Shown: piece by piece, positions 2,644 to 12,891 of the stretch
Layout of the letters: the number at the start of each line of letters is the position of its first letter
Numbering within the stretch: the first letter of the stretch is position 1
The notes under the pieces: generated by a model
The model's database searches: none
Told to the model about the DNA's origin: nothing
What the model saw: the letters and a program-made list of their open reading frames with translations, nothing else
Program-made: the position numbers and the translations under genes
Source of the DNA: Tahibacter aquaticus
Lineage (GTDB): Bacteria; Pseudomonadota; Gammaproteobacteria; Xanthomonadales; Rhodanobacteraceae
DNA: 24,000 bases
Direction: 5' to 3'
Assembly: GCF_004363655.1 (NCBI RefSeq)
Contig: NZ_SNZH01000019.1
Coordinates: forward strand, 1-24,000

Positions 2644-2943
2644 ATGAAACGGTTTGGGGATCGGCTGAGGGAGGCGCGCATCGCAGCCGGCATGACGCAG
2701 GAGCAGCTCGGCTTCGAACTCGGCGTCACAAAATCATCGGTATCGGCCTGGGAGAACGGGCGCGAGACGCCCGGCTTCAGGCTGCTCGATACCCTGCGCC
2801 AAGCAGTCGGCCGATCACTCGATGAACTGATATGCGGCGCACCAGCCATCGCGAACATGGACGGGTCGAAAGACGCCCCTGGCGTTGACCCTGCGGCTAT
2901 TGTCACCGACCGCCCCCATGGAGCCATTCCAGGATCGCCGTAA
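2644..2943 (+). CDS. XRE-family helix-turn-helix regulator, disrupted: native sequence to 2900, then reads into the IS21-family element
   Basis: HTH_3-type N-terminus: MKRFGDRLREARIAAGMTQEQLGFELGVTKSSVSAWENG. From 2901 the ORF tail (..VTDRPHGAIPGSP*) is encoded by the IS inverted repeat. Confidence 0.85.
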   Translation: MKRFGDRLREARIAAGMTQEQLGFELGVTKSSVSAWENGRETPGFRLLDTLRQAVGRSLDELICGAPAIANMDGSKDAPGVDPAAIVTDRPHGAIPGSP

Positions 2944-3051
2944 TGGAGCCAGGTGCTGACCGGGGTAATGGAGCCAGCGAATGATCGGGCTATTGGAGCC
3001 AGCCGATGATCGCCGCAATGGAGCCAGCCGAGGATCGGGCTAAAGGCGCCA
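2918..3051 (+). repeat. Six subterminal direct repeats (~25-bp period, core AATGGAGCCA) in the IS21 left end; likely transposase-binding sites
   Basis: Core copies start at 2918, 2942, 2967, 2992, 3017 and 3042, the last being degenerate (AAAGGCGCCA). Only two inverted copies (TGGCTCCATT at 5557-5566 and 5581-5590) occur at the right end. Confidence 0.8.
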
Positions 3052-3122
3052 GCTGATGCCCTGAACGGGCTCTCGAACTCCCATTCACCGCTACCCTCCG
3101 GGCCTTTTGCCTGGGGGGAGCG

Positions 3123-4664
3123 ATGAGCAACCGGAGATTCGAGATGTATGAGTACCGACAGGTCCTGGTGCGATTGCGCCAGGGCGACTCCGATCGCGAT
3201 GTCGCGCGATCCCGTCTGATGGGGCGACGCAAGGTCGCCGAGGTTCGGCAGCAGGCTACCTCGCAGGGGTGGCTGGATGCCCAGCAGCCTCTGCCCGATG
3301 ATGCGGCCCTGGCTGCTGTGTTCAGCGACGCGCCGCGCACGCCGACCGCCGTATCAACGCTGGAACCCTGGCGAGAGCAGATCGTCACGTGGGTCGACGC
3401 GGGCGTGCAGGGCACGACGATCCACGCCACGCTCAGGCGCAACCACGGCTACACCGGCAGCTATTCCGCGGTCCGCCGTTTTGTTCAGCACATGGCCGCG
3501 CAGCGACCGCTGGTGACGACGATGCGGTTGACGTTCTTGCCGGCGGAGGCGGCACAGGTGGACTTCGGCGCTGGGCCGACGATCGTGGACGTGCACACCG
3601 GTGAGGTGATGAAGACGTGGATCTTCGTCATGACATTGGCGTTCTCGCGCCACCAGTACGCCGAGGTGGTGCGCGACCAGACGGTGGCCACATGGCTGGC
3701 CTGCCACCGCCGCGCCTTCGAGCACTTCGGCGGCGTGCCCGAGCGCATCATCATCGACAATCCCAAGTGCGCCATCACGCGGGCATCGGTCACCGATCCG
3801 GTCGTGCAGCGTGCGTATGCCCAGTGTGCGGAAGGCTATGGTTTTCGCATCAGTGCGTGCCCACCGGCAGACCCGCAGAAGAAGGGCATTGTCGAGTCCG
3901 GCGTCAAGTACATAAAACGTTCATTTGTTCCATTACGTACATTCCGCGACGTGCCCGATGCCAATCGCCAGCTGCTGGAATGGGTGTTCTCCGATGCTGG
4001 CACACGCTGCCACGGTACGACACGGGAGCAGCCACTGCGCGTCTTTGCGCAGACCGAACAGGCGCTGCTCAAACCGTTGCCCGACGTACCGCCGGAGCTG
4101 GCGGTATGGGCTCAGGTCAGTGTCCATCGTGACGCGCATGTGCAGTTCGAGAAGGTGCTGTACTCGGTGCCGTTCCGGCTCATGGGGCAGCGCCTGTGGC
4201 TCAAGGCCACGGCGAGCTTGGTCACCTGCTACCGCGAGCACGAGCTTGTCGCCACGCACCCGCGCCACTCGCGCCCCGGCGCGCGCAGCACGGTCCGCGA
4301 TCATCTGCCGCCCGAGGCGTTGGCGTGGTCGCTCGCCGATCCGCAGTACTGCCTGCAGGAAGCCCAACGGATCGGACCGTCGTGTTTGAAGCTCATCACG
4401 CGCCTGTTCGCTGATCGGGTCATGGACAACCTGCGAGCGGCGCAAGGCGTGATCCGTCTGGCCAAAGCCCACGGCCCGGCACGTCTGGAAGTGGCTTGTC
4501 AGCGCGCCATGAGCTTCGACTCGCCACGCTATCGCACCGTCAAGACCATCCTTGCCAATGGACTCGATCAGGCGGCGCAAGCCGACGCCTTCGACGCCAT
4601 GGCAGAGACCTATGTTCACGGCGGCCGGTTCTGCCGCCAGAACGATACCGGTCGGCGGCACTGA
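3123..4664 (+). CDS. istA: IS21-family transposase IstA
   Basis: The 513-aa product has an N-terminal HTH region and DDE-type motifs in IS21 order: QVDFG, IIIDNPKCAI, PQKKGIVESGVKYIK. It sits inside the inverted repeats, upstream of istB. Confidence 0.95.
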   Translation: MSNRRFEMYEYRQVLVRLRQGDSDRDVARSRLMGRRKVAEVRQQATSQGWLDAQQPLPDDAALAAVFSDAPRTPTAVSTLEPWREQIVTWVDAGVQGTTIHATLRRNHGYTGSYSAVRRFVQHMAAQRPLVTTMRLTFLPAEAAQVDFGAGPTIVDVHTGEVMKTWIFVMTLAFSRHQYAEVVRDQTVATWLACHRRAFEHFGGVPERIIIDNPKCAITRASVTDPVVQRAYAQCAEGYGFRISACPPADPQKKGIVESGVKYIKRSFVPLRTFRDVPDANRQLLEWVFSDAGTRCHGTTREQPLRVFAQTEQALLKPLPDVPPELAVWAQVSVHRDAHVQFEKVLYSVPFRLMGQRLWLKATASLVTCYREHELVATHPRHSRPGARSTVRDHLPPEALAWSLADPQYCLQEAQRIGPSCLKLITRLFADRVMDNLRAAQGVIRLAKAHGPARLEVACQRAMSFDSPRYRTVKTILANGLDQAAQADAFDAMAETYVHGGRFCRQNDTGRRH

Positions 4665-4733
4665 CAATAACCAACAAAGATTTATTGCAATCTGTTCACC
4701 TATATACACAAACTTATTGAAGGAATTGACACC

Positions 4734-5522
4734 ATGAACCCGATCCCACAGCTCAACCCCGCTCTCAAGCAACTGCGCCTGTCCGGCATCCTCGACTCCC
4801 TCGAAGCCCGTAACCGCCAGGCCGTCAGCGAACACCTCGCCTATACCGACTTCCTTGCCTTGCTCATCCACGACGAGATCGCACGGCGTGACCAGAAGAA
4901 ACTCGCCTTGCGTCTACGCCGCGCAAGCTTCCGCGCCGAGAAAACCCTCGATGGCTTCGACTTCGACCGAATCCCCTCGCTCAATCGCGCTCAGATCCAC
5001 GACCTGGCCACCGGTCGCTATCTCACCGAACGAGCGCCGGTTCTCATCGTCGGCCCCTGCGGCACCGGCAAAAGTCATCTCGCCCAGGCACTCGGCCACG
5101 CCGCCGCTCGCCACGGCCACGATGTGCTCTTCACCACACAGACCCAGCTCACCGGCACCCTGCACAAGGCGCGCGCCATCGGAACCTACGAACGGCGATT
5201 GCAGCAGCTGGCCAAGCTCGACCTCCTCATCATTGATGATTTTGGTCTCAAACCCCTGCGCACACCCCACGACGAAGATCTCCACGAACTCATCGCCGAA
5301 CGCTACGAGCGCAACTCCACCATCGTCACCAGCAACCTCGACTTCGACGAATGGCACGACGCCTTTCCCGCCAACCGCATCCTCGCCGAGGCCACCATCG
5401 ACCGCCTACGTCACGGCGCCTACCGCATCGTGCTCGACGGCGATTCCTACCGGGCTCCGCGTGATGCCAAATCCGCCCCGAAACCCCCTCTTGCCAAAGC
5501 CCCGAAATCCCCCGCATCCTGA
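4734..5522 (+). CDS. istB: IS21-family ATP-binding helper protein IstB
   Basis: The 262-aa product carries Walker A GPCGTGKSHLAQALG and Walker B DLLIIDDFG. SD GAAGGA lies 8 nt upstream of the ATG. Confidence 0.95.
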   Translation: MNPIPQLNPALKQLRLSGILDSLEARNRQAVSEHLAYTDFLALLIHDEIARRDQKKLALRLRRASFRAEKTLDGFDFDRIPSLNRAQIHDLATGRYLTERAPVLIVGPCGTGKSHLAQALGHAAARHGHDVLFTTQTQLTGTLHKARAIGTYERRLQQLAKLDLLIIDDFGLKPLRTPHDEDLHELIAERYERNSTIVTSNLDFDEWHDAFPANRILAEATIDRLRHGAYRIVLDGDSYRAPRDAKSAPKPPLAKAPKSPAS

Positions 5523-5606
5523 CCCTGTTCGAGAGCCCTTTTTAGGGCACTTCTACTGGCTCCATTAGCCCGATCTTGGGTGGCTCCATTAGGGCGGTCG
5601 GTGACA

Positions 5607-5789: not shown

Positions 5790-6794
5790 GTGACACCTGC
5801 CTTCCCAATGCTCGGGTACTACACCGGCGAGCTTCGGGGAATGGCAATGTGGAAACGCTGGAGAACCTGGGTAATGCTTGCCCTGTTGGTCTTGCTGAAC
5901 ATTGCGGCCTGGGACATACGGACTGCACCTCAGCAGCATGCAGGAGTGATCCCGCTGTATCAGCACCAGCAGGATGGTGTCACTCAGTACACCGACCTAA
6001 AGCCCGATAGCTTCTATTATCGAAGCATCTGGTACTCCTGGGCTGTTGCCCTGTTCACCGGTTTCGTATTGCCCTTCATTGTGGCTTACCTTCTGCCGTG
6101 GCTGTGGCACCGAAGGAAGCACCTCATGCGAGGTATTTGGCGCGCTTTGGACAGCAGGAAAAAAAGGGCCCTTGCCACCTGCGTTGTTCTGTTTGTTGTA
6201 CTCAACATTCTTGCTTGGGACATAAAAACTTCGCCCTTTGAAGTTGCCGGGCCCATCACGCTCTACCAACACAAGATGGAGGCAGACGGCACGGCACCGT
6301 ACACGCAGCTATGGCCAAGTAAAATAGTTTACCAAAATCCTTGGCTTACTTATGGTTGGGCGATCTTCGTTGGCTTTGTCTTGCCGTTCGCACCCGTCGT
6401 CTTGCCTTGGCTATGGCGACGGTTCCGGCATGGCCCCGGTCGATCAACCTCAAGCTCTCTACAGGGAAGCAAAGTGGGGGCCGCCCTGGGCACCTTGACC
6501 CTGCTCATAGCCTTCAATGTCCTAGCTTGGAACTGGGCCGAATCCAGCGAGAAGGGCAAGTTGCTCATCGTGCTGGAAGAGCGGGTAGCTCGTGAAAATG
6601 TAGGGTTTCAGAGGTACGACGCTACGTACTACTCTGGCATCGCCCCAGGAATCCGCTTTCCCGACGTGGGCACCTCTGTGCTCGCCTCGTTCTTCGTCGG
6701 CGAAATCCTGCCTTTCCTGCTTGCCATCGCGCTGTTTCGACGCCGACAGCCGCCGGCCCTTCCGCTGCCCCCTGTCGCGGGAGCACCGCGATGA
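5790..6794 (+). CDS. Integral membrane protein, three tandem two-TM modules (6 TM); family not recognised
   Basis: 334-aa ORF with a GTG start at 5790 (GAGAGG ~12 nt upstream); alternative ATG starts at 5808 or 5841 are possible. Six hydrophobic helices carry the repeated motifs LNIAAWD/LNILAWD/FNVLAWN and GFVLPF/GFVLPF/GEILPF. The stop overlaps the next gene's start (ATGA at 6791-6794). Confidence 0.8.
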   Translation: MTPAFPMLGYYTGELRGMAMWKRWRTWVMLALLVLLNIAAWDIRTAPQQHAGVIPLYQHQQDGVTQYTDLKPDSFYYRSIWYSWAVALFTGFVLPFIVAYLLPWLWHRRKHLMRGIWRALDSRKKRALATCVVLFVVLNILAWDIKTSPFEVAGPITLYQHKMEADGTAPYTQLWPSKIVYQNPWLTYGWAIFVGFVLPFAPVVLPWLWRRFRHGPGRSTSSSLQGSKVGAALGTLTLLIAFNVLAWNWAESSEKGKLLIVLEERVARENVGFQRYDATYYSGIAPGIRFPDVGTSVLASFFVGEILPFLLAIALFRRRQPPALPLPPVAGAPR

Positions 6795-8746
6795 ACTTAG
6801 ATACCCTTTGGATGACGCTTCAAGTCGTCATCATTATTGTTCTCGCCATCTTCGTCGCGTATGCCGTGTCAGTTTGGCGTGATCGACGTGCCATTCAGGC
6901 CCTGCTAGACGCGGTAGATTTTTACTCTACGGTCGCCCATGGAACTGCCGACTGGAATCGCAATGCCTTCCCCGGCATCAAGCCTGGTCCGCTCTTCTTA
7001 GGCGCAGCCAATGGCAGCGCGATGTACTACGACGGTGACCAGCACCTGATAACCATTGCCCCGACTAGAACGGGCAAGGGAACCTGCCACATCATTCCCA
7101 ACCTGCTGACCTACCCGGGCAGCATGGTCGTAAACGACATCAAGGGAGAGAACTACAAGCTGTCCGGAGAGAGACGCGGCCACTTCGGTAAGGTCTTCCG
7201 ATTCGCGCCCTTCGAGAACGACACCAGTGGCTTCAACCCGCTGGACTTCGTACGACGAGGCACGCCCGCCGCATTCGATGACGCCATGCTCATCGCCGAC
7301 ATGCTCATCGTGCCAGGGAAAGATGAAGAAGAGGGCAATCACTGGAAGGAAGCCGCCAAGAACCTATTGGCAGGCCTCATCGGCTACGTCAGCGAAACTG
7401 AGGAAGGCGAGCGGAACATGCAGCGCGTCCGCCAGTTGCTGACGCTCAATCAGAAAGCATTTCTTGAATTCGTCCGAGACAAGATGACGGCTTCGAAATC
7501 CGCCTTCGTCGTGCGCGCGGCCAACATACTGCTACAGAAGGCTGACCGCGAGCGTAGCGGCGTTGTCTCGACGGCACAGGCGCAGACCACTATATGGGAT
7601 AGCGAACATCTGTCGACAGCAACAAAAGTTAGTAGTTTTGGCCTTGAAGAGCTGCGTGACCAGGTGGCGACCCTCTACATCATTATTCCCCCGGAACATC
7701 TGAGCACCTACAAGGGGGTGCTGCGCGTCGTACTCGGACTAGCCCTATCGACGATGACCAGGCAGTTGCCAACACGGAACGACCGACCACCGCTGACCTT
7801 CCTGTTCGATGAGTTCCCGAGCCTGGGCTATATGCAGCCCATCGTAGACGGCATGGCCTACCTCGCTGGCTACGGCTGTCGGCTTTGGCTCTTCGCGCAA
7901 GACCTCGGCCAAATCCGTGAGACTTACGGCGACAAGGCCACCTCGCTACTGGCCAACTGCGGAGCGCGCTCCTTCTTCGGCGTTGCCGACTACGAAACTG
8001 CCGAATATGTCTCGAAGATGGTCGGTCAGAAAACCATTCGAACTTCATCCAGAACCTTCAAGACCAGCAAAATTTTGTTCTGGGCTGACGTTTGGGGCGT
8101 TGAAACCCAGAGTCTGCAATATGTCGGCGTGCCGCTTATCACGCCCGACGAAGTCATGCGAATACCGACTTGGGGCGATCAGCAGCGGCAAATCGTATTC
8201 CTACAAGGACAACGCCCGGTCTTGGCGTACAAAATCCCTTACCAGGATGTAGCAGTCTGGGCTGCTGCTGCGGTGCGTGCGCCGGTGTCGGTGCAGCTCA
8301 ACCAGTCGCCTATGCCGCCAAGCGATGTGCCAGAGGCTTCACAACAACCGGAGGTTGTAGCTGCAACTGGCACGGCTAACAGGGGGGTGAAAATACCCCT
8401 TGCAACCAAGCCGGGGTCTGCTTACATAAAAGGAGGCAACAAGCGAAAGGGTCAGGGGATGACCGCGACTTACGAACTCATTGAAGAATCCGAGGCCAAC
8501 TCGGAGAAAATGCACGAAAGCATGGTTCAATCAGCACAGCGTGCCCGCGAGGCAGAGCAAAAAGCAAAAGTACTGCAAAATGAACTTGCGACGTTGCCGT
8601 CTCAAGACCCAAGACGAGAAGGCTTGCTAAAACATATCGAGCTTTTGCAACTCATCGTCCAAACCGCTCGCGAAAACGTGTCGGATGGCCGCCTGGTATT
8701 GGATGCCGAGAGTGCTTTTGCAAAACGCCTCAAGGATGGATCATGA
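6791..8746 (+). CDS. traG: Type IV secretion coupling protein (VirD4/TraG family ATPase) with single N-terminal TM helix and long charged C-terminal tail
   Basis: The 651-aa product shows these motifs: HGTADW, Walker A ITIAPTRTGKGTCHIIPNLL, VVNDIKGENYKL, NPLDF, Walker B-like PLTFLFDEFPSLG, and RLWLFAQDLGQIRETYG. One hydrophobic segment spans residues ~8-28. The C-terminal ~150 aa are rich in E/K/Q/A heptad-like sequence. Confidence 0.92.
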   Translation: MNLDTLWMTLQVVIIIVLAIFVAYAVSVWRDRRAIQALLDAVDFYSTVAHGTADWNRNAFPGIKPGPLFLGAANGSAMYYDGDQHLITIAPTRTGKGTCHIIPNLLTYPGSMVVNDIKGENYKLSGERRGHFGKVFRFAPFENDTSGFNPLDFVRRGTPAAFDDAMLIADMLIVPGKDEEEGNHWKEAAKNLLAGLIGYVSETEEGERNMQRVRQLLTLNQKAFLEFVRDKMTASKSAFVVRAANILLQKADRERSGVVSTAQAQTTIWDSEHLSTATKVSSFGLEELRDQVATLYIIIPPEHLSTYKGVLRVVLGLALSTMTRQLPTRNDRPPLTFLFDEFPSLGYMQPIVDGMAYLAGYGCRLWLFAQDLGQIRETYGDKATSLLANCGARSFFGVADYETAEYVSKMVGQKTIRTSSRTFKTSKILFWADVWGVETQSLQYVGVPLITPDEVMRIPTWGDQQRQIVFLQGQRPVLAYKIPYQDVAVWAAAAVRAPVSVQLNQSPMPPSDVPEASQQPEVVAATGTANRGVKIPLATKPGSAYIKGGNKRKGQGMTATYELIEESEANSEKMHESMVQSAQRAREAEQKAKVLQNELATLPSQDPRREGLLKHIELLQLIVQTARENVSDGRLVLDAESAFAKRLKDGS

Positions 8747-9081
8747 CCACGCTGCAAGAAGAAGAGGTCCGCTGTAAGCGACGCTTACTAGATGCCGTGG
8801 AGCAGAAGAAGAGCGTGGAAGACCAGCTCGTAGCGAAAGAAGACGAGCTAGAAAAAAAGGGCTTCACGCCTGAGCTTTGGGCGAAAGTCGATAAGCTACA
8901 AAAGCAACGCGCCGAACTCATTTCTTTAGTGAGTGCCCGAGGAGCCGAATGGCGAGAGGCAAAAGCAAACCTAGACGCTGAGCATCAGCTTGAAGAACGG
9001 CGCGCCCGTGAAGCCGAAAGCCAGAAGGCGCGTGAGCAAGAACGCGCTAAGGGAAAGGAAATAGACGACCTGGAACTTTAG
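8743..9081 (+). CDS. Small highly charged coiled-coil protein, translationally coupled to the T4CP gene
   Basis: 112-aa ORF. Its ATG overlaps the T4CP stop (ATGA at 8743-8746), with AAGGATGGA upstream. The sequence is dominated by E/K/R/Q/A/L (EDELEKKG.., LEERRAREAESQKAREQERAKGKE). Confidence 0.7.
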   Translation: MTTLQEEEVRCKRRLLDAVEQKKSVEDQLVAKEDELEKKGFTPELWAKVDKLQKQRAELISLVSARGAEWREAKANLDAEHQLEERRAREAESQKAREQERAKGKEIDDLEL

Positions 9082-9117
9082 CGGCGTAGATACACCGCCG
9101 TAATCTGCTCGCGCTCG
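9078..9117 (-). pseudogene. 40-bp relic of the 3' end of a tyrosine-recombinase gene
   Basis: The minus strand reads EREQITAVYLRR*. Positions 9088-9117 are 30/30 identical to 10073-10102 and 27/30 identical to the 3' end of the intact integrase (10621-10650). Confidence 0.65.
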
Positions 9118-9269
9118 GTTTCGGGAAGGCATAGATTGGGCAGCATATAGCTGCCGCCAGCGCGACAACGGCCCGCGCGGCACACTTATGTGGGAAGATT
9201 ACTCTTGCAATTAGGCTCAAGGAAAAGCGCAGCAGTAAGGAGCGAGAGATGATGGATTCGAAGTGGTTT

Positions 9270-9932
9270 TCATGCACCGCGGTCGGCGACCTCGCGGGCA
9301 CGATGCGCAACTAGGGTGATTTTTGCCCACAACTCTTCTGCACTTTTTGCCAATTCTTGTATCTTCTCATCGTCGGTATCTGACCATATGTCAAGGACGA
9401 GCAATGCCTTCTTCCCCAGGAGCAAGGTGTCGCGATCAAAGTCTCGGCCTAATTCGATTGCTTCGGCAAACGTCGCCTCTGATCCTCCTAGCAAGTGCGC
9501 CCGCTCTAAAAACGTCACCAGCTCCTGCTGCGCAGAAAATTCAATACGCGCATCGCCGCTCAAGTATTTGCCCGCGATCTCCCGACTGTTTCCGTAGGCT
9601 AGAAAACGTCCGCCGATCCCGACCCGCGCGCCCCATTCTTCGAGGGGTGGGAGTATTCGCCTCGCGAATGCCCGAGCGGCTGTGACCTCCACTCTGCGTA
9701 GGTCAGCTAGTGCGTGCCCTCGCTGTATGGCGAGTACTAAAAACACTGCCACCAACGTGCCTGCGGACAGCAAGGCTTGCGCCCAGGCCGCGCAGGCACT
9801 TAACCAGCTTGGGTCTTTCATGCATAGCGGCTTGGCGATTCCCCAGAGCTCTAGGCAAAAGATGCCGAGACCAACGACCAGCCCGCCCCAACCAAGTCCC
9901 GCGCTCGCAATCTTCAATGCCCTGCGAATCAC
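9270..9932 (-). CDS. Hypothetical protein with two N-terminal TM helices and a soluble C-terminal domain
   Basis: 220-aa ORF with a GTG start preceded by a strong SD (GGAGGAG, 6-nt spacer). Hydrophobic segments: GLGWGGLVVGLGIFCLELWGI and ALLSAGTLVAVFLVLAI. No family was recognised. Confidence 0.7.
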   Translation of the reverse strand: MIRRALKIASAGLGWGGLVVGLGIFCLELWGIAKPLCMKDPSWLSACAAWAQALLSAGTLVAVFLVLAIQRGHALADLRRVEVTAARAFARRILPPLEEWGARVGIGGRFLAYGNSREIAGKYLSGDARIEFSAQQELVTFLERAHLLGGSEATFAEAIELGRDFDRDTLLLGKKALLVLDIWSDTDDEKIQELAKSAEELWAKITLVAHRAREVADRGA

Positions 9933-10062
9933 AATTCACTCCTCCAGACCGGTCGGGCTGATATGCATTCCGCGATTTACGTTGGGCTTTGGCGGAACAA
10001 ACTTTTGCATTCTACGCCTCACAGAAGGCGCGCAGAGCTAGCGGTGTACTCTCTCATGACCA

Positions 10063-10195
10063 CTATCGCCCAAGATACACCGCCGTAATCTGCTCGCGCT
10101 CGTGGCCGAGCTAGCAGAAAATCCGCAACCTGGCCTCGCGTTCACGAGCCTCGCCGTCGCTCTCGCCACCAAGAAGCGGCTTGAAGTAGGTCCAA
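10063..10195 (-). pseudogene. ~130-bp relic of the 3' end of a related tyrosine-recombinase gene, with an internal stop
   Basis: The minus strand reads ..LGGESDGEAREREARLRIFC*LGHEREQITAVYLGR*. The intact gene reads ..QLGIDDKARDRDARLKISRELGHEREQITAVYLGR*. Nucleotide similarity is clear over the first ~90 bp and then fades. Confidence 0.75.
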
Positions 10196-10332
10196 AATTA
10201 GAAGCTCAACAAGAACAAAGGTGCAGAGATACACTTCGGATGCTAGCGGTTCGAGACAGGTTGACGTAGTCTACTAGCAGACGCACCGCTGCTGAATGAG
10301 TACTTCCAACCGCAAGCCTGGAGGATGCAACA

Positions 10333-10590
10333 ATGGCCAAAGGTTTTCGTTGCCCTGCATGTGGCAAATCTACTGCCACACAGGATAAGGGGGCATATCA
10401 CTGCGGCAACAATGCGTGTGGCACTGTCTGGTGGACTGCGTTCGATAGACCGTCCGCCGGAGCAAAGAAAAAGGGGTTCGAATGCACGTCTTGTGGAAAG
10501 CAAACAGTGCATTCAATCGCCACGGTTGCTGCCGCTGAAATATGGCGTTGCAGTACATGTGCATGGACCCGGATTAGCCCGGTTCAGTAG
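10333..10590 (+). CDS. Small double zinc-ribbon protein (internal duplication)
   Basis: 85-aa ORF with SD GGAGGA 7 nt upstream. It has two CxxC..CxxxC/CxxC units: FRCPACGK..YHCGNNACG and FECTSCGK..WRCSTCAW. Confidence 0.7.
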   Translation: MAKGFRCPACGKSTATQDKGAYHCGNNACGTVWWTAFDRPSAGAKKKGFECTSCGKQTVHSIATVAAAEIWRCSTCAWTRISPVQ

Positions 10591-10610
10591 ACGAGAGCTT
10601 CAATACCAGC

Positions 10611-11492
10611 CTATCGACCGAGATAGACCGCCGTTATCTGCTCTCGCTCGTGGCCCAGCTCGCGAGAAATCTTCAACCTGGCATCGCGGTCGCGGGCCTT
10701 GTCGTCAATACCGAGCTGACGTGAGGTCGGGCCGCCGGCAGCAGGGCAAGGAAAGCCCGTTTCCTCCAGGTAGCGACGCTGCGCATACTGATGCCGTAGG
10801 CCGTGGGTTTTCGAGAGGCCAGCCTTCGCCGTCTGGTGCTTGAAGGTGTTGAGCTGTTCAACATAGAGCTTGTTGGACGGAATCAGCGAGCCGCCTTTGG
10901 CGAAGCCAGCGACCTCCTGGAGCAAGGCCACCTGTTCCGCCGTGCGTATCGGAACCTCGCGCGGCCTTCCGCCCTTGCACCAGGACGCCTTGAGCTGTAC
11001 GACCTGGCCGACTTCAATGGCGACCAACGCGACCTTGGGGCGAAACTTCAGGGCTTCTTCGCGGCGCAGGCCAAAGGCGGCCTGCAAGCGCAGGGCATAC
11101 CGCGTCCAGGGATCAGTGACCCGCTCCAGGCCATCGCCGCCCAACTCAACAGCCTTGGTCTTGTTGGTGACGTACTTGCGGTCAGCAATGCCGTAAAAGG
11201 CGTTGTCGCTGGCAATGATGCCCGGCTTGCCGACCTTTTCGGCCCACCACCGAAGGGCCGCCATGCGGTTCTTCACCGTGCCGACTGACAGGTCTTGTCC
11301 ACGCCAGGACTTCACCAACGCCTCGACGTGCTTCGGCTTGAGGCTGTCGGCAGTCATATTCTGATAGCCCAACCCCTTCAGGTCGTCGGCCATCTTGGTC
11401 AGAGTCTTTAATCTCTCTGCCTGGGTGCCAAAGCTCCCGTCTTTGTTGCGGTAGGCCAGGTGTCGCAGGTCGTATTTCAAGCTCACACGCAT
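10611..11492 (-). CDS. Tyrosine recombinase / phage-type integrase
   Basis: The 293-aa product has an N-terminal SAM-like region (KPKHVEALVKSW..TVKNRMAALRWW). The catalytic signature reads AFGLRREEAL (Arg), KGGRPREVPI, THGLRHQYAQ (His-x-x-Arg), and LGHEREQITAVYLGR* (His..Tyr), with the Tyr four residues from the C-terminus. Confidence 0.9.
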   Translation of the reverse strand: MRVSLKYDLRHLAYRNKDGSFGTQAERLKTLTKMADDLKGLGYQNMTADSLKPKHVEALVKSWRGQDLSVGTVKNRMAALRWWAEKVGKPGIIASDNAFYGIADRKYVTNKTKAVELGGDGLERVTDPWTRYALRLQAAFGLRREEALKFRPKVALVAIEVGQVVQLKASWCKGGRPREVPIRTAEQVALLQEVAGFAKGGSLIPSNKLYVEQLNTFKHQTAKAGLSKTHGLRHQYAQRRYLEETGFPCPAAGGPTSRQLGIDDKARDRDARLKISRELGHEREQITAVYLGR

Positions 11493-11684
11493 TGCCGGAG
11501 TTCCGGTAAGTGTTCACGCCGTCACTGGTGGCTCCGGGAGCCAGCCAGCAACCCCACCTCGATCAGATCGAGGCAGGCAGGGGCTATTGAGCTTGGGCGC
11601 ATCGACCGATGCACCCGCGTTTGTGCCTGTTGGCACCTCCTTTCTACGCAGGTTGTTGACCTGATTGGTTTTCATACGACGGTG

Positions 11685-11960
11685 CTAGCTCCCCTCCTGG
11701 CCGGAAGGGGAAAGCACCCGATGCAGGTTTTTCGCGTGGGCCTGTCCACGTTGAGGGTTTCCCCTCGAACCGTCCTGAAACGCCTGTAGGTTTCGTTTCA
11801 AGCGTTCCGCCTTGCCCCGGCTCATATCGCGTTCGTGGCGCGCCTGGGCTGTCTCCTGATGCGCTTCCATGAGCGCGACCAGCAGACGCGCGTTCTCGCG
11901 GCGGAGGGTTCCGACTTCCGCACGGAGGGCCGCGAGCTGTTCCGCGACGCTGGTCGTCAT
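11685..11960 (-). CDS. Hypothetical small coiled-coil protein upstream of the integrase (start uncertain: ATG 11960 or TTG 11987)
   Basis: Track ORF 11685..11987. The N-terminal half is heptad-like (AEQLAALRAEVGTLRRENARLLVALMEAHQETAQARHE). The C-terminal third is low complexity. No convincing SD was found. Confidence 0.4.
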   Translation of the reverse strand: MTTSVAEQLAALRAEVGTLRRENARLLVALMEAHQETAQARHERDMSRGKAERLKRNLQAFQDGSRGNPQRGQAHAKNLHRVLSPSGQEGS

Positions 11961-12015
11961 GCCTCCATCATTCCGAAATCGTGCCAAAAAATCAATGTAT
12001 ACCGAGGTGTTTCAT

Positions 12016-12052
12016 GCGTCGTCATTGTCAGCTTGGCAGCCAATGACGACGC
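12016..12052. repeat. Perfect 12-bp inverted repeat with 13-nt spacer in ORF-free DNA
   Basis: GCGTCGTCATTG (12016-12027), then tcagcttggcagc, then CAATGACGACGC (12041-12052). Confidence 0.85.
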
Positions 12053-12891
12053 TGCGTGTTGCTACGCCCCCCCGAAAACGCCACGCCGGTTTTGGACAGG
12101 CACGCCGGTTCTTCAGTTTTGTGAAGACTGTTCACGGGCGTCAGGCGGCCAGTACGCCTTCAGACAACAGAGGAGATGAACGCTTTCGTCTAGCGGCAGG
12201 GGGGGGCTCACCCTTCCCCCTTTGTCGTATCCGACAACAGCCGTCTGAGTTCTGTCGGCTACAACCATCCCGAAGCGGTCGGCATCTTGCGGTTCACGCT
12301 ACGCGGCTCGCAGCCGCCTCCGCAGGTGCGTTTCGCAGACCATATAGCTGAGAGGATCGGCGCCTTCACCGCAGCGAGGCATACCGGAGCGTGGTCGAGC
12401 AATCCTCTCACCGCTGTCTGGCCAGCTATTGCCGTAGTAACCGTTGCGTGCTTCTGCGTCCAGCGCACATCGCCTTCTTCTGCCTGGGGTCGTCGTGTTC
12501 TAGGGCTAGCCACCAAATTCTTCCTGACCTAGGCCCTTACCCCCCCCGTGCCGTGTGGCCAAGAAATGGACTCGTTGCCCAACCCGAATCACGCAGATCA
12601 ATCGCGACTACGGCGGAATGCAAAGGAATCACGAAAACTTGTGCTGTCGACGGACGTGTCGGATAGTCGCCCTACTAGCGAACCGCGCTCTCACGCTACG
12701 CTTCAACTGCTGGAGCGATTAGTTCGCAGAGCCTAACGGATGGCGGCAATTTTTGGTGCACGCTCACATTCAAGTTCGCCAGTGTTCGAAAAGCGACTGT
12801 TCAGTTTGGCTCTATCTGCGATTCAAGAATCTGCATAGGAAACCACCAAGCCGGTTGCGTTTTATGATTATCCTTTTAAAAGGACATTCTT

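What the first reader, a model, noticed from the sequence alone, without database searches (positions are those of the whole stretch)
9078..10700. Three direct copies of the integrase 3' end (including the catalytic-Tyr codon) bracketing single-gene cargo segments
Seen in the sequence:
- The final ~30 nt of the intact integrase gene (plus strand AGATAGACCGCCGTTATCTGCTCTCGCTCG, 10621-10650; minus strand ..EREQITAVYLGR*) recur twice in the same orientation.
- The copy at 10073-10102 extends into a ~130-bp relic (10063-10195). That relic reads ..EAREREARLRIFC*LGHEREQITAVYLGR*, with an in-frame stop.
- The copy at 9088-9117 breaks off abruptly after 40 bp and reads EREQITAVYLRR*.
- The two relic cores are 30/30 identical to each other but only 27/30 identical to the live gene. 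They therefore derive from a second, related integrase allele.
- Each interval holds exactly one strong-SD gene: a 2-TM protein in the 985-bp interval, and a double zinc-ribbon protein in the 548-bp interval.

Inference, two alternatives:
(a) Related elements insert repeatedly at a site inside the 3' end of a resident integrase gene, each bringing a replacement 3' end. This would be analogous to islands that target and restore tRNA 3' ends.
(b) The relics are deletion remnants of tandemly accreted islands.

Either way this is a cassette-like accretion zone 3' of a tyrosine recombinase, which is not the integron layout.
Basis: partly seen in the sequence, partly recalled or inferred. Interest (0 to 1): 0.7.

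Follow-up and report, generated by a model that had tools for sequence, protein, structure and literature searches.

The report
Recombinase-gene stumps marking a cargo hotspot
The three repeats are real: two are leftover 3' ends of earlier copies of a recombinase-like gene, showing that unrelated single genes were repeatedly added at one spot in a mobile element, probably not by an integron-like enzyme reaction.

Summary
The last 39 nt (9079-9117) and 131 nt (10063-10193) of the live 293-aa gene (10611-11492, minus strand) recur as direct repeats. The 30-nt cores of the two relics are identical. The same layout occurs in four independent assemblies.

The gene belongs to the PF12834/PF12835 tyrosine-recombinase-like family. 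It is syntenic with a VirD4-type coupling protein. In three related elements its stop codon overlaps the stop of a convergent small gene by 4 nt, with no cargo. Eight other lineages carry at least seven unrelated cargo sets at that junction.

Relic A is the ancestral gene end, still joined to the convergent gene. Relic B is the stump of an earlier allele that once sat intact upstream of the 2-TM gene, as it still does in a Lysobacteraceae genome. A third stump of about 155-180 nt lies inside another element's cargo.

Catalysed insertion at the gene's 3' end is not supported. Stump lengths differ, stumps decay elsewhere, and live genes show no extra synonymous conservation there. 158 wider-family loci have no relics. 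The family's conserved DNA element is a hairpin upstream of the operon.

Best reading: a permissive cargo hotspot filled by recombination between related elements.

The parts
9078..9117 (-). Relic A: the last 13 codons plus stop of a recombinase-like gene. Its stop (TAA, 9080-9078) overlaps the TAG stop (9079-9081) of the convergent small gene. This is the ancestral gene end.
   Evidence: Together with the end of the convergent gene it aligns to the cargo-free junction of L007 (87% over 54 nt) and of L166.
9270..9932 (-). Cargo 1: a 220-aa protein with two N-terminal transmembrane-like segments, a GTG start and a GGAGGA Shine-Dalgarno sequence. No family match.
   Evidence: A homologue (75% nt identity) sits directly after an intact recombinase-like gene in L010/L087. 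GC content of the segment is 56% against 61% for the recombinase-like gene.
10063..10193 (-). Relic B: a 131-nt stump of an earlier allele of the recombinase-like gene. It has an in-frame stop and a 9-nt insertion.
   Evidence: nhmmer E 1e-21 and translation. The spacer between it and cargo 1 shares blocks with the L010 spacer between the intact gene and the same cargo gene.
10333..10590 (+). Cargo 2: an 85-aa double zinc-ribbon protein, convergent with the live gene. There are 20 nt between the two stop codons.
   Evidence: Homologues (58-70% aa identity) lie in arrays of small co-directional genes; L169 has attC-like repeats between the genes. Segment GC is 52%.
10611..11492 (-). Live 293-aa tyrosine-recombinase-like gene (PF12834 N-terminal domain plus PF12835 catalytic domain). 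The catalytic-type Tyr is 5 residues from the C-terminus.
   Evidence: Pfam 68.6 and 40.9 bits, both above the curated cut-offs; PF00589 reaches only 19.2 bits against a cut-off of 27.1. Translation. 7921 homologues found. No PDB sequence relative.
11685..11987 (-). Conserved small ORF (about 91-100 aa, coiled-coil-like) immediately upstream of the recombinase-like gene and co-directional with it.
   Evidence: 99% aa identity in L001 and 59% in L007. Called as a 91-aa gene in the related contigs.
12017..12056 (.). Perfect 12-bp inverted repeat (GCGTCGTCATTG-N13-CAATGACGACGC) upstream of the operon. It is a candidate cis site (oriT or att) for the protein.
   Evidence: Invariant across the clade, including L007, which is 75% identical at the nt level. 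Folds at -20.6 kcal/mol, z = -5.5. A related GTCAYT..ARTGAC repeat lies upstream of 98 of 127 family members, against 2 of 127 downstream.
12111..12127 (-). Small conserved motif TTCACAAARCTGAAG. Beyond it all related elements become unrelated, so this is a second variable-cargo boundary.
8743..9081 (+). Convergent 112-aa coiled-coil gene, the last gene of the coupling-protein operon. Its stop overlaps the stop of relic A.
   Evidence: Equivalent genes overlap the intact recombinase-like gene by 4 nt in L007, L166 and L168.
6791..8746 (+). VirD4/TraG-type type IV coupling protein (651 aa).
   Evidence: PF02534 E 2.3e-84. Synteny with the recombinase-like gene is conserved in all long contigs of the clade.

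Best explanation
The locus is the transfer-type module of an integrated mobile element. Its order is: hairpin, small ORF and tyrosine-recombinase-like gene, converging on a small coiled-coil gene, a VirD4 coupling protein and a 334-aa gene.

In the ancestral state the two convergent operons end in overlapping stop codons. That junction is the only place in the module where DNA can be added without breaking an operon, so it has become a cargo hotspot.

Because the stops overlap, any insertion that keeps both genes intact must leave a duplicated piece of the recombinase-like gene's 3' end.
- Relic A is the original gene end, left attached to the coiled-coil gene by the first insertion, which brought the 2-TM gene.
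- Relic B is the stump of the allele that then sat intact upstream of the 2-TM gene.
- A later recombination with a related element brought in the present allele together with the zinc-ribbon gene. The join fell about 131 nt before the old stop.

The inferred mechanism is ordinary recombination between related elements. One crossover uses the long homology of the small-ORF/recombinase-like gene module. The other is an illegitimate or short-homology join. The encoded enzyme is not thought to act on the repeated core.

Shown: the ancestral overlap, the variable cargo, the stump identities and the order of events. Inferred: the recombination mechanism.
For: 1. Cargo-free junctions with a 4-nt stop overlap occur in three lineages: L007, L166 and L168.
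2. Relic A plus the end of the convergent gene is collinear with those junctions.
3. Eight filled lineages carry at least seven unrelated cargo sets.
4. L010/L087 keeps the arrangement intact gene, spacer, 2-TM gene. The window's spacer between relic B and the 2-TM gene shares blocks with that spacer.
5. A second internal stump lies in L001 at 6500-6654. It covers about 180 positions of the gene profile, with deletions (E 3.5e-14), and its core has decayed to about 79% identity.
6. Stumps beside the convergent gene range from pristine (window) through half-decayed (L008, E 4e-4) and barely detectable (L002, E 0.65) to unrecognisable (L010, L001).
7. The recombinase-like gene tree and the coupling-protein tree are incongruent. 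The recombinase-like gene with its upstream small ORF is 87-92% identical at the nt level between elements whose coupling-protein regions are only 65-81% identical at the nt level. This shows frequent module exchange by homologous recombination.
8. There is no excess synonymous conservation at the 3' end and no structure in the cores.
9. None of 158 wider-family loci has a relic.
10. Cargo GC is 52-56% against 61% for the recombinase-like gene.
Against: The stump next to the convergent gene begins about 40 nt before the stop in both the window and L008, and probably also in L002, although their cargo is unrelated. This fits one ancient event followed by cargo turnover, but it equally fits a fixed site.

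Cargo-free elements are interspersed with filled ones in both gene trees. This requires either repeated gains or repeated precise losses between the repeats.

The window's relic A core is 30/30 identical to relic B, although the 2-TM block is old (75% nt identity to L010). In L008 the distal half of the relic is 18/18 identical to its own live gene end. Both cases need gene conversion or recent recombination between the repeats.

No donor element for the zinc-ribbon segment was found, so the illegitimate join is not directly documented.
Confidence: 0.55

Rival explanations
1. Site-specific cassette capture. The encoded tyrosine-recombinase-like protein recombines a site spanning its own last ~40 nt (and the first few nt of the convergent gene) with the same site on small circular DNAs. 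This stacks single-gene cassettes, with the newest nearest the gene. The repeats would then be attL/attR-like hybrids, and recombination between them would regenerate cargo-free elements.
For: Three direct copies share a 27-30/30 core.

The distal relic starts about 40 nt before the stop in the window and L008, and possibly L002, with unrelated cargo.

In L008 the two copies share an exact 18-nt block flanked by diverged arms, and a possible short echo of the convergent gene's end follows the live stop. That is the pattern expected of attL/attR.

Cargo-free and filled elements are interspersed on the trees.

The newer cargo lies proximal to the gene in the window, and probably in L001.
Against: Repeat lengths are unequal: 39, 131 and about 155-180 nt.

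Cores decay freely in L001, L002 and L010.

There is no synonymous constraint on the core in ten live alleles.

The core has only a 4-5-bp dyad and no fold (direct reading).

Four near-identical assemblies show no cassette gain or loss.

No relic occurs in 158 other family loci, although cargo also abuts their 3' ends.

The family-wide conserved cis element is the upstream hairpin.
Confidence: 0.2
2. Tandem accretion of whole related elements followed by large deletions, as with cis-mobilizable elements (CIMEs). A second element recombined with the resident one in or near the recombinase-like gene. Most of the duplicated backbone was later deleted, leaving gene stumps and a few accessory genes.
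For: Accretion and deletion are documented for ICESt1-type elements (Pavlovic et al. 2004, listed in the references of bioRxiv 10.64898/2026.01.13.699239).

Stumps of unequal length are what deletions produce.

Elements of this clade carry a second paralogous recombinase-like gene about 9-10 kb away in L002, L166 and L167.

L037 carries two full copies of the recombinase-like gene in direct orientation, about 7.3 kb apart.
Against: No fragment of any other backbone gene (coupling protein, coiled-coil gene, small ORF or hairpin) lies between the repeats. Only unrelated cargo is there.

The junction is internal to the conserved module, not at an element end.

Each stump would need a separate, conveniently placed deletion of more than 10 kb.
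Confidence: 0.15
3. Relaxase-type recombination. The protein is a MOB_M (MpsA-like) relaxase, and the repeated core is a secondary nick or termination site. Initiation at one copy and termination at another would then move or delete the intervening genes.
For: One published classifier uses PF12835 as the signature of MpsA-type relaxases (PMC10484663).

The gene is syntenic with a coupling protein.

Against: The known oriTs of TR-like relaxases lie upstream of the gene (PMC8152469, PMC6414798). The conserved hairpin here is also upstream.

The core shares no sequence with that hairpin (direct reading).

There is no constraint on the core.
Confidence: 0.05

Closest known systems
Variable-DNA hotspots in the conserved backbone of integrative conjugative elements such as SXT/R391 (from my own knowledge)
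   Same: Unrelated accessory genes, some defence-related, occupy one fixed intergenic position in an otherwise syntenic transfer backbone. Content differs between close relatives, and some members are empty.
   Different: Here the hotspot lies between two genes whose stops overlap, so filling it leaves nested stumps of one flanking gene. To my knowledge such stumps are not a described feature of those hotspots.
ICESt1/ICESt3-CIME accretion in Streptococcus thermophilus (Pavlovic et al. 2004, cited in bioRxiv 10.64898/2026.01.13.699239)
   Same: Three direct repeats bracket recombinase-less cargo segments beside an element's recombination gene. The growth is stepwise.
   Different: There the repeats are equal-length att sites at the element's end inside a host gene (fda), and they are made by the integrase. 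Here they are unequal fragments of the element's own gene, they are internal to the element, and no catalysis is evident.
Islands that insert into and restore the 3' end of a host gene (tRNA genes; SGI1 in trmE, PMC8409611)
   Same: A displaced native 3' end lies distal to the insert, and a replacement 3' end keeps the gene intact.
   Different: The 'target' is the mobile element's own recombinase-like gene. The inserts carry no integrase. The displaced ends differ in length, and the core shows no DNA-level constraint.
Integrons
   Same: Single-gene units are stacked beside a tyrosine-recombinase-type gene, with the newest apparently nearest. The zinc-ribbon gene family also occurs in arrays with attC-like repeats (L169).
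   Different: The cargo lies 3' of the gene and convergent with it, not 5' at an attI site. There are no attC-like folded sites. The protein family is PF12834/PF12835, not IntI.
Tyrosine-recombinase-like relaxases MpsA (SGI1), MobK (pIGRK) and TcpM (pCW3), the MOB_M class (PMC6414798, PMC8152469, bioRxiv 10.64898/2026.01.13.699239)
   Same: The PF12835-type catalytic domain. A SAM-like N-terminal domain of the kind MpsB supplies as a separate protein. A position in a transfer module. An inverted-repeat-rich candidate cis site just upstream of the gene.
   Different: Both domains are fused in one 293-aa protein. No activity has been tested. The three described relaxases are reported to share no significant sequence similarity with one another.
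Homology-facilitated illegitimate recombination (from my own knowledge)
   Same: A one-sided homologous anchor plus an illegitimate join adds foreign DNA next to a conserved gene. It can duplicate or delete a few tens to hundreds of nt at the join.
   Different: It is described experimentally for natural transformation. Here it is only inferred from the end products.

Membership tests
Integron | IntI-type integrase (PF00589 with the IntI-specific insertion) | tested here: not met
   PF12834 and PF12835 score above their cut-offs, while PF00589 scores 19.2 bits, below its cut-off of 27.1; no NCBIfam IntI model matched.
Integron | Cassettes inserted at an attI site on the 5' side of the integrase gene | tested here: not met
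   The cargo lies 3' of the gene, between its stop and a convergent gene.
Integron | attC sites (imperfect inverted repeats, RYYYAAC...GTTRRRY) at cassette ends | tested here: not met
   The repeated cores do not fold (z = -0.2, +1.5 and -2.1), and no attC-like motif is visible around the cargo. By contrast, L169 shows 8 attC-like repeats.
PF12834/PF12835 tyrosine-recombinase-like family | Both Pfam domains above their gathering scores | tested here: met
   68.6 bits against a cut-off of 22, and 40.9 bits against a cut-off of 23.
PF12834/PF12835 tyrosine-recombinase-like family | Conserved C-terminal GH-x5-T-x2-Y-LGR motif carrying the catalytic-type Tyr | tested here: met
   GHEREQITAVYLGR* in the window gene. 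Almost all of the ~90 gene copies listed end in the same or a closely similar motif.
MOB_M (MpsA-type) relaxase | Matches the signature used for MpsA-type proteins | tested here: inconclusive
   PF12835 is matched, and that model is what PMC10484663 uses. The dedicated MOB_M profile (cut-off 84 bits, bioRxiv 10.64898/2026.01.13.699239) was not available.
MOB_M (MpsA-type) relaxase | Located in a transfer module with a coupling protein and/or oriT | tested here: met
   VirD4 synteny is seen in every long contig of the clade. The candidate cis hairpin is upstream.
MOB_M (MpsA-type) relaxase | Tyr-dependent nicking at oriT and mobilisation | not testable with these tools
   This needs conjugation and nicking assays like those in PMC8152469.
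att-flanked site-specific accretion (CIME type) | Repeats of equal extent sharing one identity block | tested here: not met
   Relics are 39, 131 and about 155-180 nt long. The identical block lies in a different part of the segment in the window than in L008.
att-flanked site-specific accretion (CIME type) | Core conserved at the DNA level beyond what coding requires | tested here: not met
   Synonymous difference is 0.45 in the last 13 codons against a gene mean of 0.36, rank 240 of 282 windows.
att-flanked site-specific accretion (CIME type) | Excision products (circles or precise deletions) between repeats | tested here: inconclusive
   Four assemblies of the same element all carry both cargo genes. 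Cargo-free relatives exist, but their origin is ambiguous.

The most novel reading that the evidence does not exclude
The PF12834/PF12835 protein recombines a site that overlaps its own catalytic-Tyr codon and the overlapping stop codons of the convergent gene. It would capture and release single-gene circles there. This would be an integron-like cassette system built on a different recombinase family, with the attachment site inside the 3' end of the recombinase gene, embedded in a conjugative transfer module.
Probability: 0.15. Interest if true: 0.75.

Novelty: new variant of a known kind. Interest (0 to 1): 0.4.

Why it matters
The locus gives an unusually legible fossil record of how a compact transfer module acquires accessory genes. 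Because the two flanking genes overlap, each acquisition leaves a dated stump, so the order of events can be read directly.

It also draws attention to a very large and almost uncharacterised tyrosine-recombinase-like family, with 7921 homologues found. In these data the family has three consistent features:
- it sits next to variable cargo, often defence genes (type I restriction-modification, RhuM, GmrSD, Gabija-like, CBASS-like);
- it carries a family-wide conserved upstream hairpin;
- it may correspond to the recently proposed MOB_M relaxases.

If the minority reading (catalysed capture at the gene's own 3' end) were true, it would be a second, independent invention of a cassette platform.

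Tried and rejected
- Megablast of 8700-11700 against plasmids found no match.
- phmmer of the protein against PDB sequences found no relative.
- NCBIfam on the window proteins was uninformative.
- PADLOC on ten proteins (nine cargo proteins and the window's convergent coiled-coil gene) matched only the L001 FRG protein, to candidate system PDC-S15. Pfam on further cargo found nothing.
- A second copy of the boundary motif TTCACAAARCTGAAG or of the hairpin, as a possible other element end, was not found in the window or in any locus.
- A full-text search for the hairpin stem sequence returned only unrelated primer matches.
- A Pfam census of genes upstream of wider-family members found no common family. 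NCBIfam then named the recurrent 398-aa neighbour as STY4528-family.
- Fetching pIGRK (MobK) by a guessed accession failed.
- Zinc-ribbon homologues were traced in the hope of finding the donor of cargo 2. They lie in arrays of small co-directional genes, and homology is confined to the coding region, so the donor junction remains unknown.
- An apparent gradient of decay along relic B looked like evidence for a composite origin. I rejected it because most differences fall at positions that also vary among live alleles.
- A palindrome centred on the overlapping stops in L007 and L168 was considered as a possible core site. It is largely explained by both genes ending in Leu-x-Arg-stop codons, and it is weak in L166 and in the window (direct reading).


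Full report
OBSERVATION

The repeats are real. The repeat finder reports a three-copy direct family at 9079-9117, 10064-10102 and 10612-10650, and a 96-nt pair 10063-10158 / 10611-10706 at 81% identity. The 29-nt core occurs three times on the minus strand with 0, 0 and 2 mismatches, against 0.00 expected in shuffles.

A nucleotide profile of live alleles delimits relic B as 10063-10193 (E 1e-21) and relic A as 9079-9117 (E 1.8e-6).

Each interval holds one gene preceded by GGAGGA. One is a 220-aa protein with two N-terminal hydrophobic segments (9270-9932, minus strand). The other is an 85-aa double zinc ribbon (10333-10590, plus strand).

The layout is not an assembly artefact. It recurs in independent assemblies L003 (98.8% identical), L004 and L005, and partly in L006.

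WHAT THE GENE AND ITS SURROUNDINGS ARE

The 293-aa protein matches PF12834 and PF12835 above their cut-offs. It matches the canonical PF00589 only below cut-off. It has no sequence relative in the PDB.

It lies in a conserved block:
- a hairpin, a small ORF of about 91-100 aa, and the recombinase-like gene, on one strand;
- converging on a coiled-coil gene of about 95-120 aa, a VirD4-type coupling protein and a gene of about 200-334 aa, followed by an HTH gene, an ankyrin gene and RadC.

The closest named genome is a Lysobacteraceae MAG. There the block lies inside an 845-kb contig, so the element is integrated.

One published island classifier uses PF12835 as the signature for MpsA-type 'atypical relaxases' (PMC10484663). 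A recent preprint reports that such tyrosine-recombinase-like MOB_M relaxases are common in chromosomes and usually lie near a true integrase. Whether this protein is a recombinase or a relaxase is therefore open.

COMPARATIVE ANATOMY OF THE JUNCTION

In L007, L166 and L168 the recombinase-like gene and the convergent coiled-coil gene overlap by 4 nt at their stop codons. There is no cargo.

The window's relic A, together with the last codons of the coiled-coil gene, is collinear with those empty junctions: 87% over 54 nt to L007, and near-identical to L166. Relic A is therefore the ancestral gene end.

Eight other lineages carry cargo at this junction:
- window: zinc-ribbon gene plus 2-TM gene;
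- L001: five genes (55 aa, DUF6338, CyanoTRADDas_TM, 49 aa, FRG);
- L002: a 336-aa gene;
- L008: a 249-aa gene;
- L009/L172: genes of 299 aa and about 231-238 aa, with the contig ending before any coupling-protein gene;
- L010/L087: a homologue of the 2-TM gene;
- L167: a 209-aa gene;
- L173: a 150-aa gene and a 258-aa gene, with the contig ending there.

Cargo GC is 52-56%, against 61% for the recombinase-like gene.

STUMPS

Next to the coiled-coil gene there is a relic of about 37-40 nt in the window (E 1e-8 with the tail profile) and in L008 (E 4e-4). There is a barely detectable one in L002 (E 0.65) and nothing recognisable in L010, L001 or L167.

L001 has an internal stump at 6500-6654. 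It covers about 180 positions of the gene profile with deletions (E 3.5e-14). Its core is as decayed as the rest, at about 79% identity. This stump splits the L001 cargo into two blocks, as relic B does in the window.

In L010/L087 an intact recombinase-like gene is followed by a spacer and the 2-TM gene. The window's spacer between relic B and the 2-TM gene shares sequence blocks with that spacer. Relic B is therefore what remains of an allele that once sat intact upstream of the 2-TM gene.

The present allele and the zinc-ribbon gene arrived later, on the gene-proximal side. Relic B is 81% identical to the live gene and at best 86.5% identical to another allele, L008.

IS THE CORE A RECOMBINATION SITE?

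Several tests argue against it.
1. Stump lengths are unequal: 39, 131 and about 155-180 nt.
2. In ten live alleles the last 13 codons show a synonymous difference of 0.45 per degenerate codon pair. The gene mean is 0.36, and this window ranks 240th of 282. There is thus no DNA-level constraint. By contrast, the first 13 codons score 0.08.
3. The identical 30-mer of relics A and B is simply the clade consensus.
4. The cores have no significant fold and only a 4-5-bp dyad.
5. None of 158 loci of the wider family (49-59% aa identity) has any relic of its own 3' end. Yet variable genes (type I restriction-modification, RhuM, GmrSD, UvrD-type) abut the 3' ends of these genes too.
6. The DNA element that travels with the family is an inverted repeat upstream of the operon. 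In the window it is GCGTCGTCATTG-N13-CAATGACGACGC (12017-12056; -20.6 kcal/mol, z = -5.5). Related GTCAYT..ARTGAC repeats occur upstream of 98 of 127 family members, against 2 of 127 downstream. This matches the upstream position of oriT in the characterised tyrosine-recombinase-like relaxases (PMC8152469, PMC6414798).

WHAT STILL FAVOURS A SITE

- The distal relic begins about 40 nt before the stop in both the window and L008, and probably also in L002, despite unrelated cargo.
- In L008 the distal half of the relic is 18/18 identical to the end of its own live gene, while the proximal half is diverged.
- The window's relic A core is pristine, although the 2-TM block is old (75% nt identity to L010).
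- Cargo-free elements are interspersed with filled ones on both gene trees.

These observations can be explained by one ancient duplication, later cargo turnover within the spacer, occasional gene conversion, and repeat-mediated precise deletion. They nevertheless keep a catalysed mechanism alive at roughly one chance in five.

MECHANISM PREFERRED

The recombinase-like gene tree and the coupling-protein tree are incongruent. The recombinase-like gene with its upstream small ORF is 87-92% identical at the nt level between elements whose coupling-protein regions are only 65-81% identical at the nt level. Homology stops exactly at the stop codon on one side and at the hairpin/motif on the other. 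This module is therefore exchanged often by homologous recombination.

An exchange whose second join falls inside the resident gene's 3' part, or in the short homology offered by an existing relic, adds the donor's cargo proximally. It leaves a stump whose length depends on where the join fell.

Because the two stops overlap, the only insertions that keep both genes intact are those that duplicate the end of the recombinase-like gene. This explains why every surviving event left a relic containing the catalytic-Tyr codon.

This part is inference. No donor for the zinc-ribbon segment was found. Its homologues lie in arrays of small co-directional genes, and similarity is limited to the coding region.

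VERDICT

'Accretion zone, not an integron' is supported. 'Targeted insertion into the integrase 3' end' is not supported. 'Deletion or recombination remnants' is the better reading. This is a new variant of the known theme of cargo hotspots in mobile-element backbones, and its interest is moderate.

Noticed in passing
window 12017-12056; loci L001-L165, about 450-780 nt upstream of each family member: A family-wide conserved inverted repeat (GTCAYT..ARTGAC; commonest form GGGCCGTCACTGC-CCGCC-GCAGTGACGGCCC) lies upstream of 98 of 127 PF12834/PF12835 genes across many proteobacterial genera, against 2 of 127 downstream. It is a candidate oriT or att site of this uncharacterised family. I found no description of it in the literature searched.
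   Followed up: partly
window 12111-12127 and beyond; L003 1-8000; L166 13900-18000: A second variable-cargo boundary lies just beyond the hairpin, at the motif TTCACAAARCTGAAG. Past it the window has DUF2971 and unknown genes, L003 has an OLD-family/UvrD pair (Gabija-like), and L166 has CD-NTase plus Cap15 (CBASS-like).
   Followed up: partly
window 2903-5606: An IS21-family insertion (IstA 3123-4664, IstB 4734-5522). It is absent from the otherwise 100% identical L005 and from L003 and L001. In the comparison with L003, identity switches from 83% to 98.8% at this same point.
   Followed up: partly
L169 1-4060; L170: Homologues of the zinc-ribbon cargo gene (58-70% aa identity) sit in arrays of small co-directional genes. 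In L169 the genes are separated by 8 attC-like repeats (...CTAAC...GCGTTAGRC), which is the pattern of an integron cassette array.
   Followed up: partly
L002 19875-20732; L166 2533-3372; L167 2801-3670: Elements of this clade carry a second paralogue of the same family (279-289 aa; 57% aa identity to the window protein in L002) about 9-10 kb away, beyond RadC. L167 additionally has a canonical PF00589 integrase at the contig end.
   Followed up: no
L098 8209-9405; L115 8212-9408, and many genome loci: In the wider family the recurrent layout is: a 398-aa STY4528-family 'pathogenicity island replication protein', then the hairpin, a 158-aa ORF, the recombinase-like gene, and convergent defence-type cargo (type I restriction-modification, RhuM, GmrSD).
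   Followed up: partly
window 11454-11492 (first 13 codons of the recombinase-like gene): Synonymous divergence among ten alleles is 0.08 here, against a gene mean of 0.36. This could reflect a translation-initiation constraint or an overlapping cis element.
   Followed up: no
L007 1860-1895; L168 junction: The overlapping stop codons sit in a palindrome (CCGCTAGCGG in L007; GGGCCGCTAGCGGCCC in L168). In L168 both convergent genes end in Leu-Gly-Arg-stop.
   Followed up: partly
L001 6732-7733: The FRG-domain cargo protein matches PADLOC candidate defence system PDC-S15 (E 6e-13). L001 also carries DUF6338 and CyanoTRADDas_TM proteins in the same hotspot.
   Followed up: no
L009 2716-2784 / L172 2577-2645: There is a marginal match (E 0.016) to the middle of the recombinase-like gene profile (positions 309-382), about 1.4 kb downstream of the live gene and on the same strand. 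It may be another old gene fragment.
   Followed up: no
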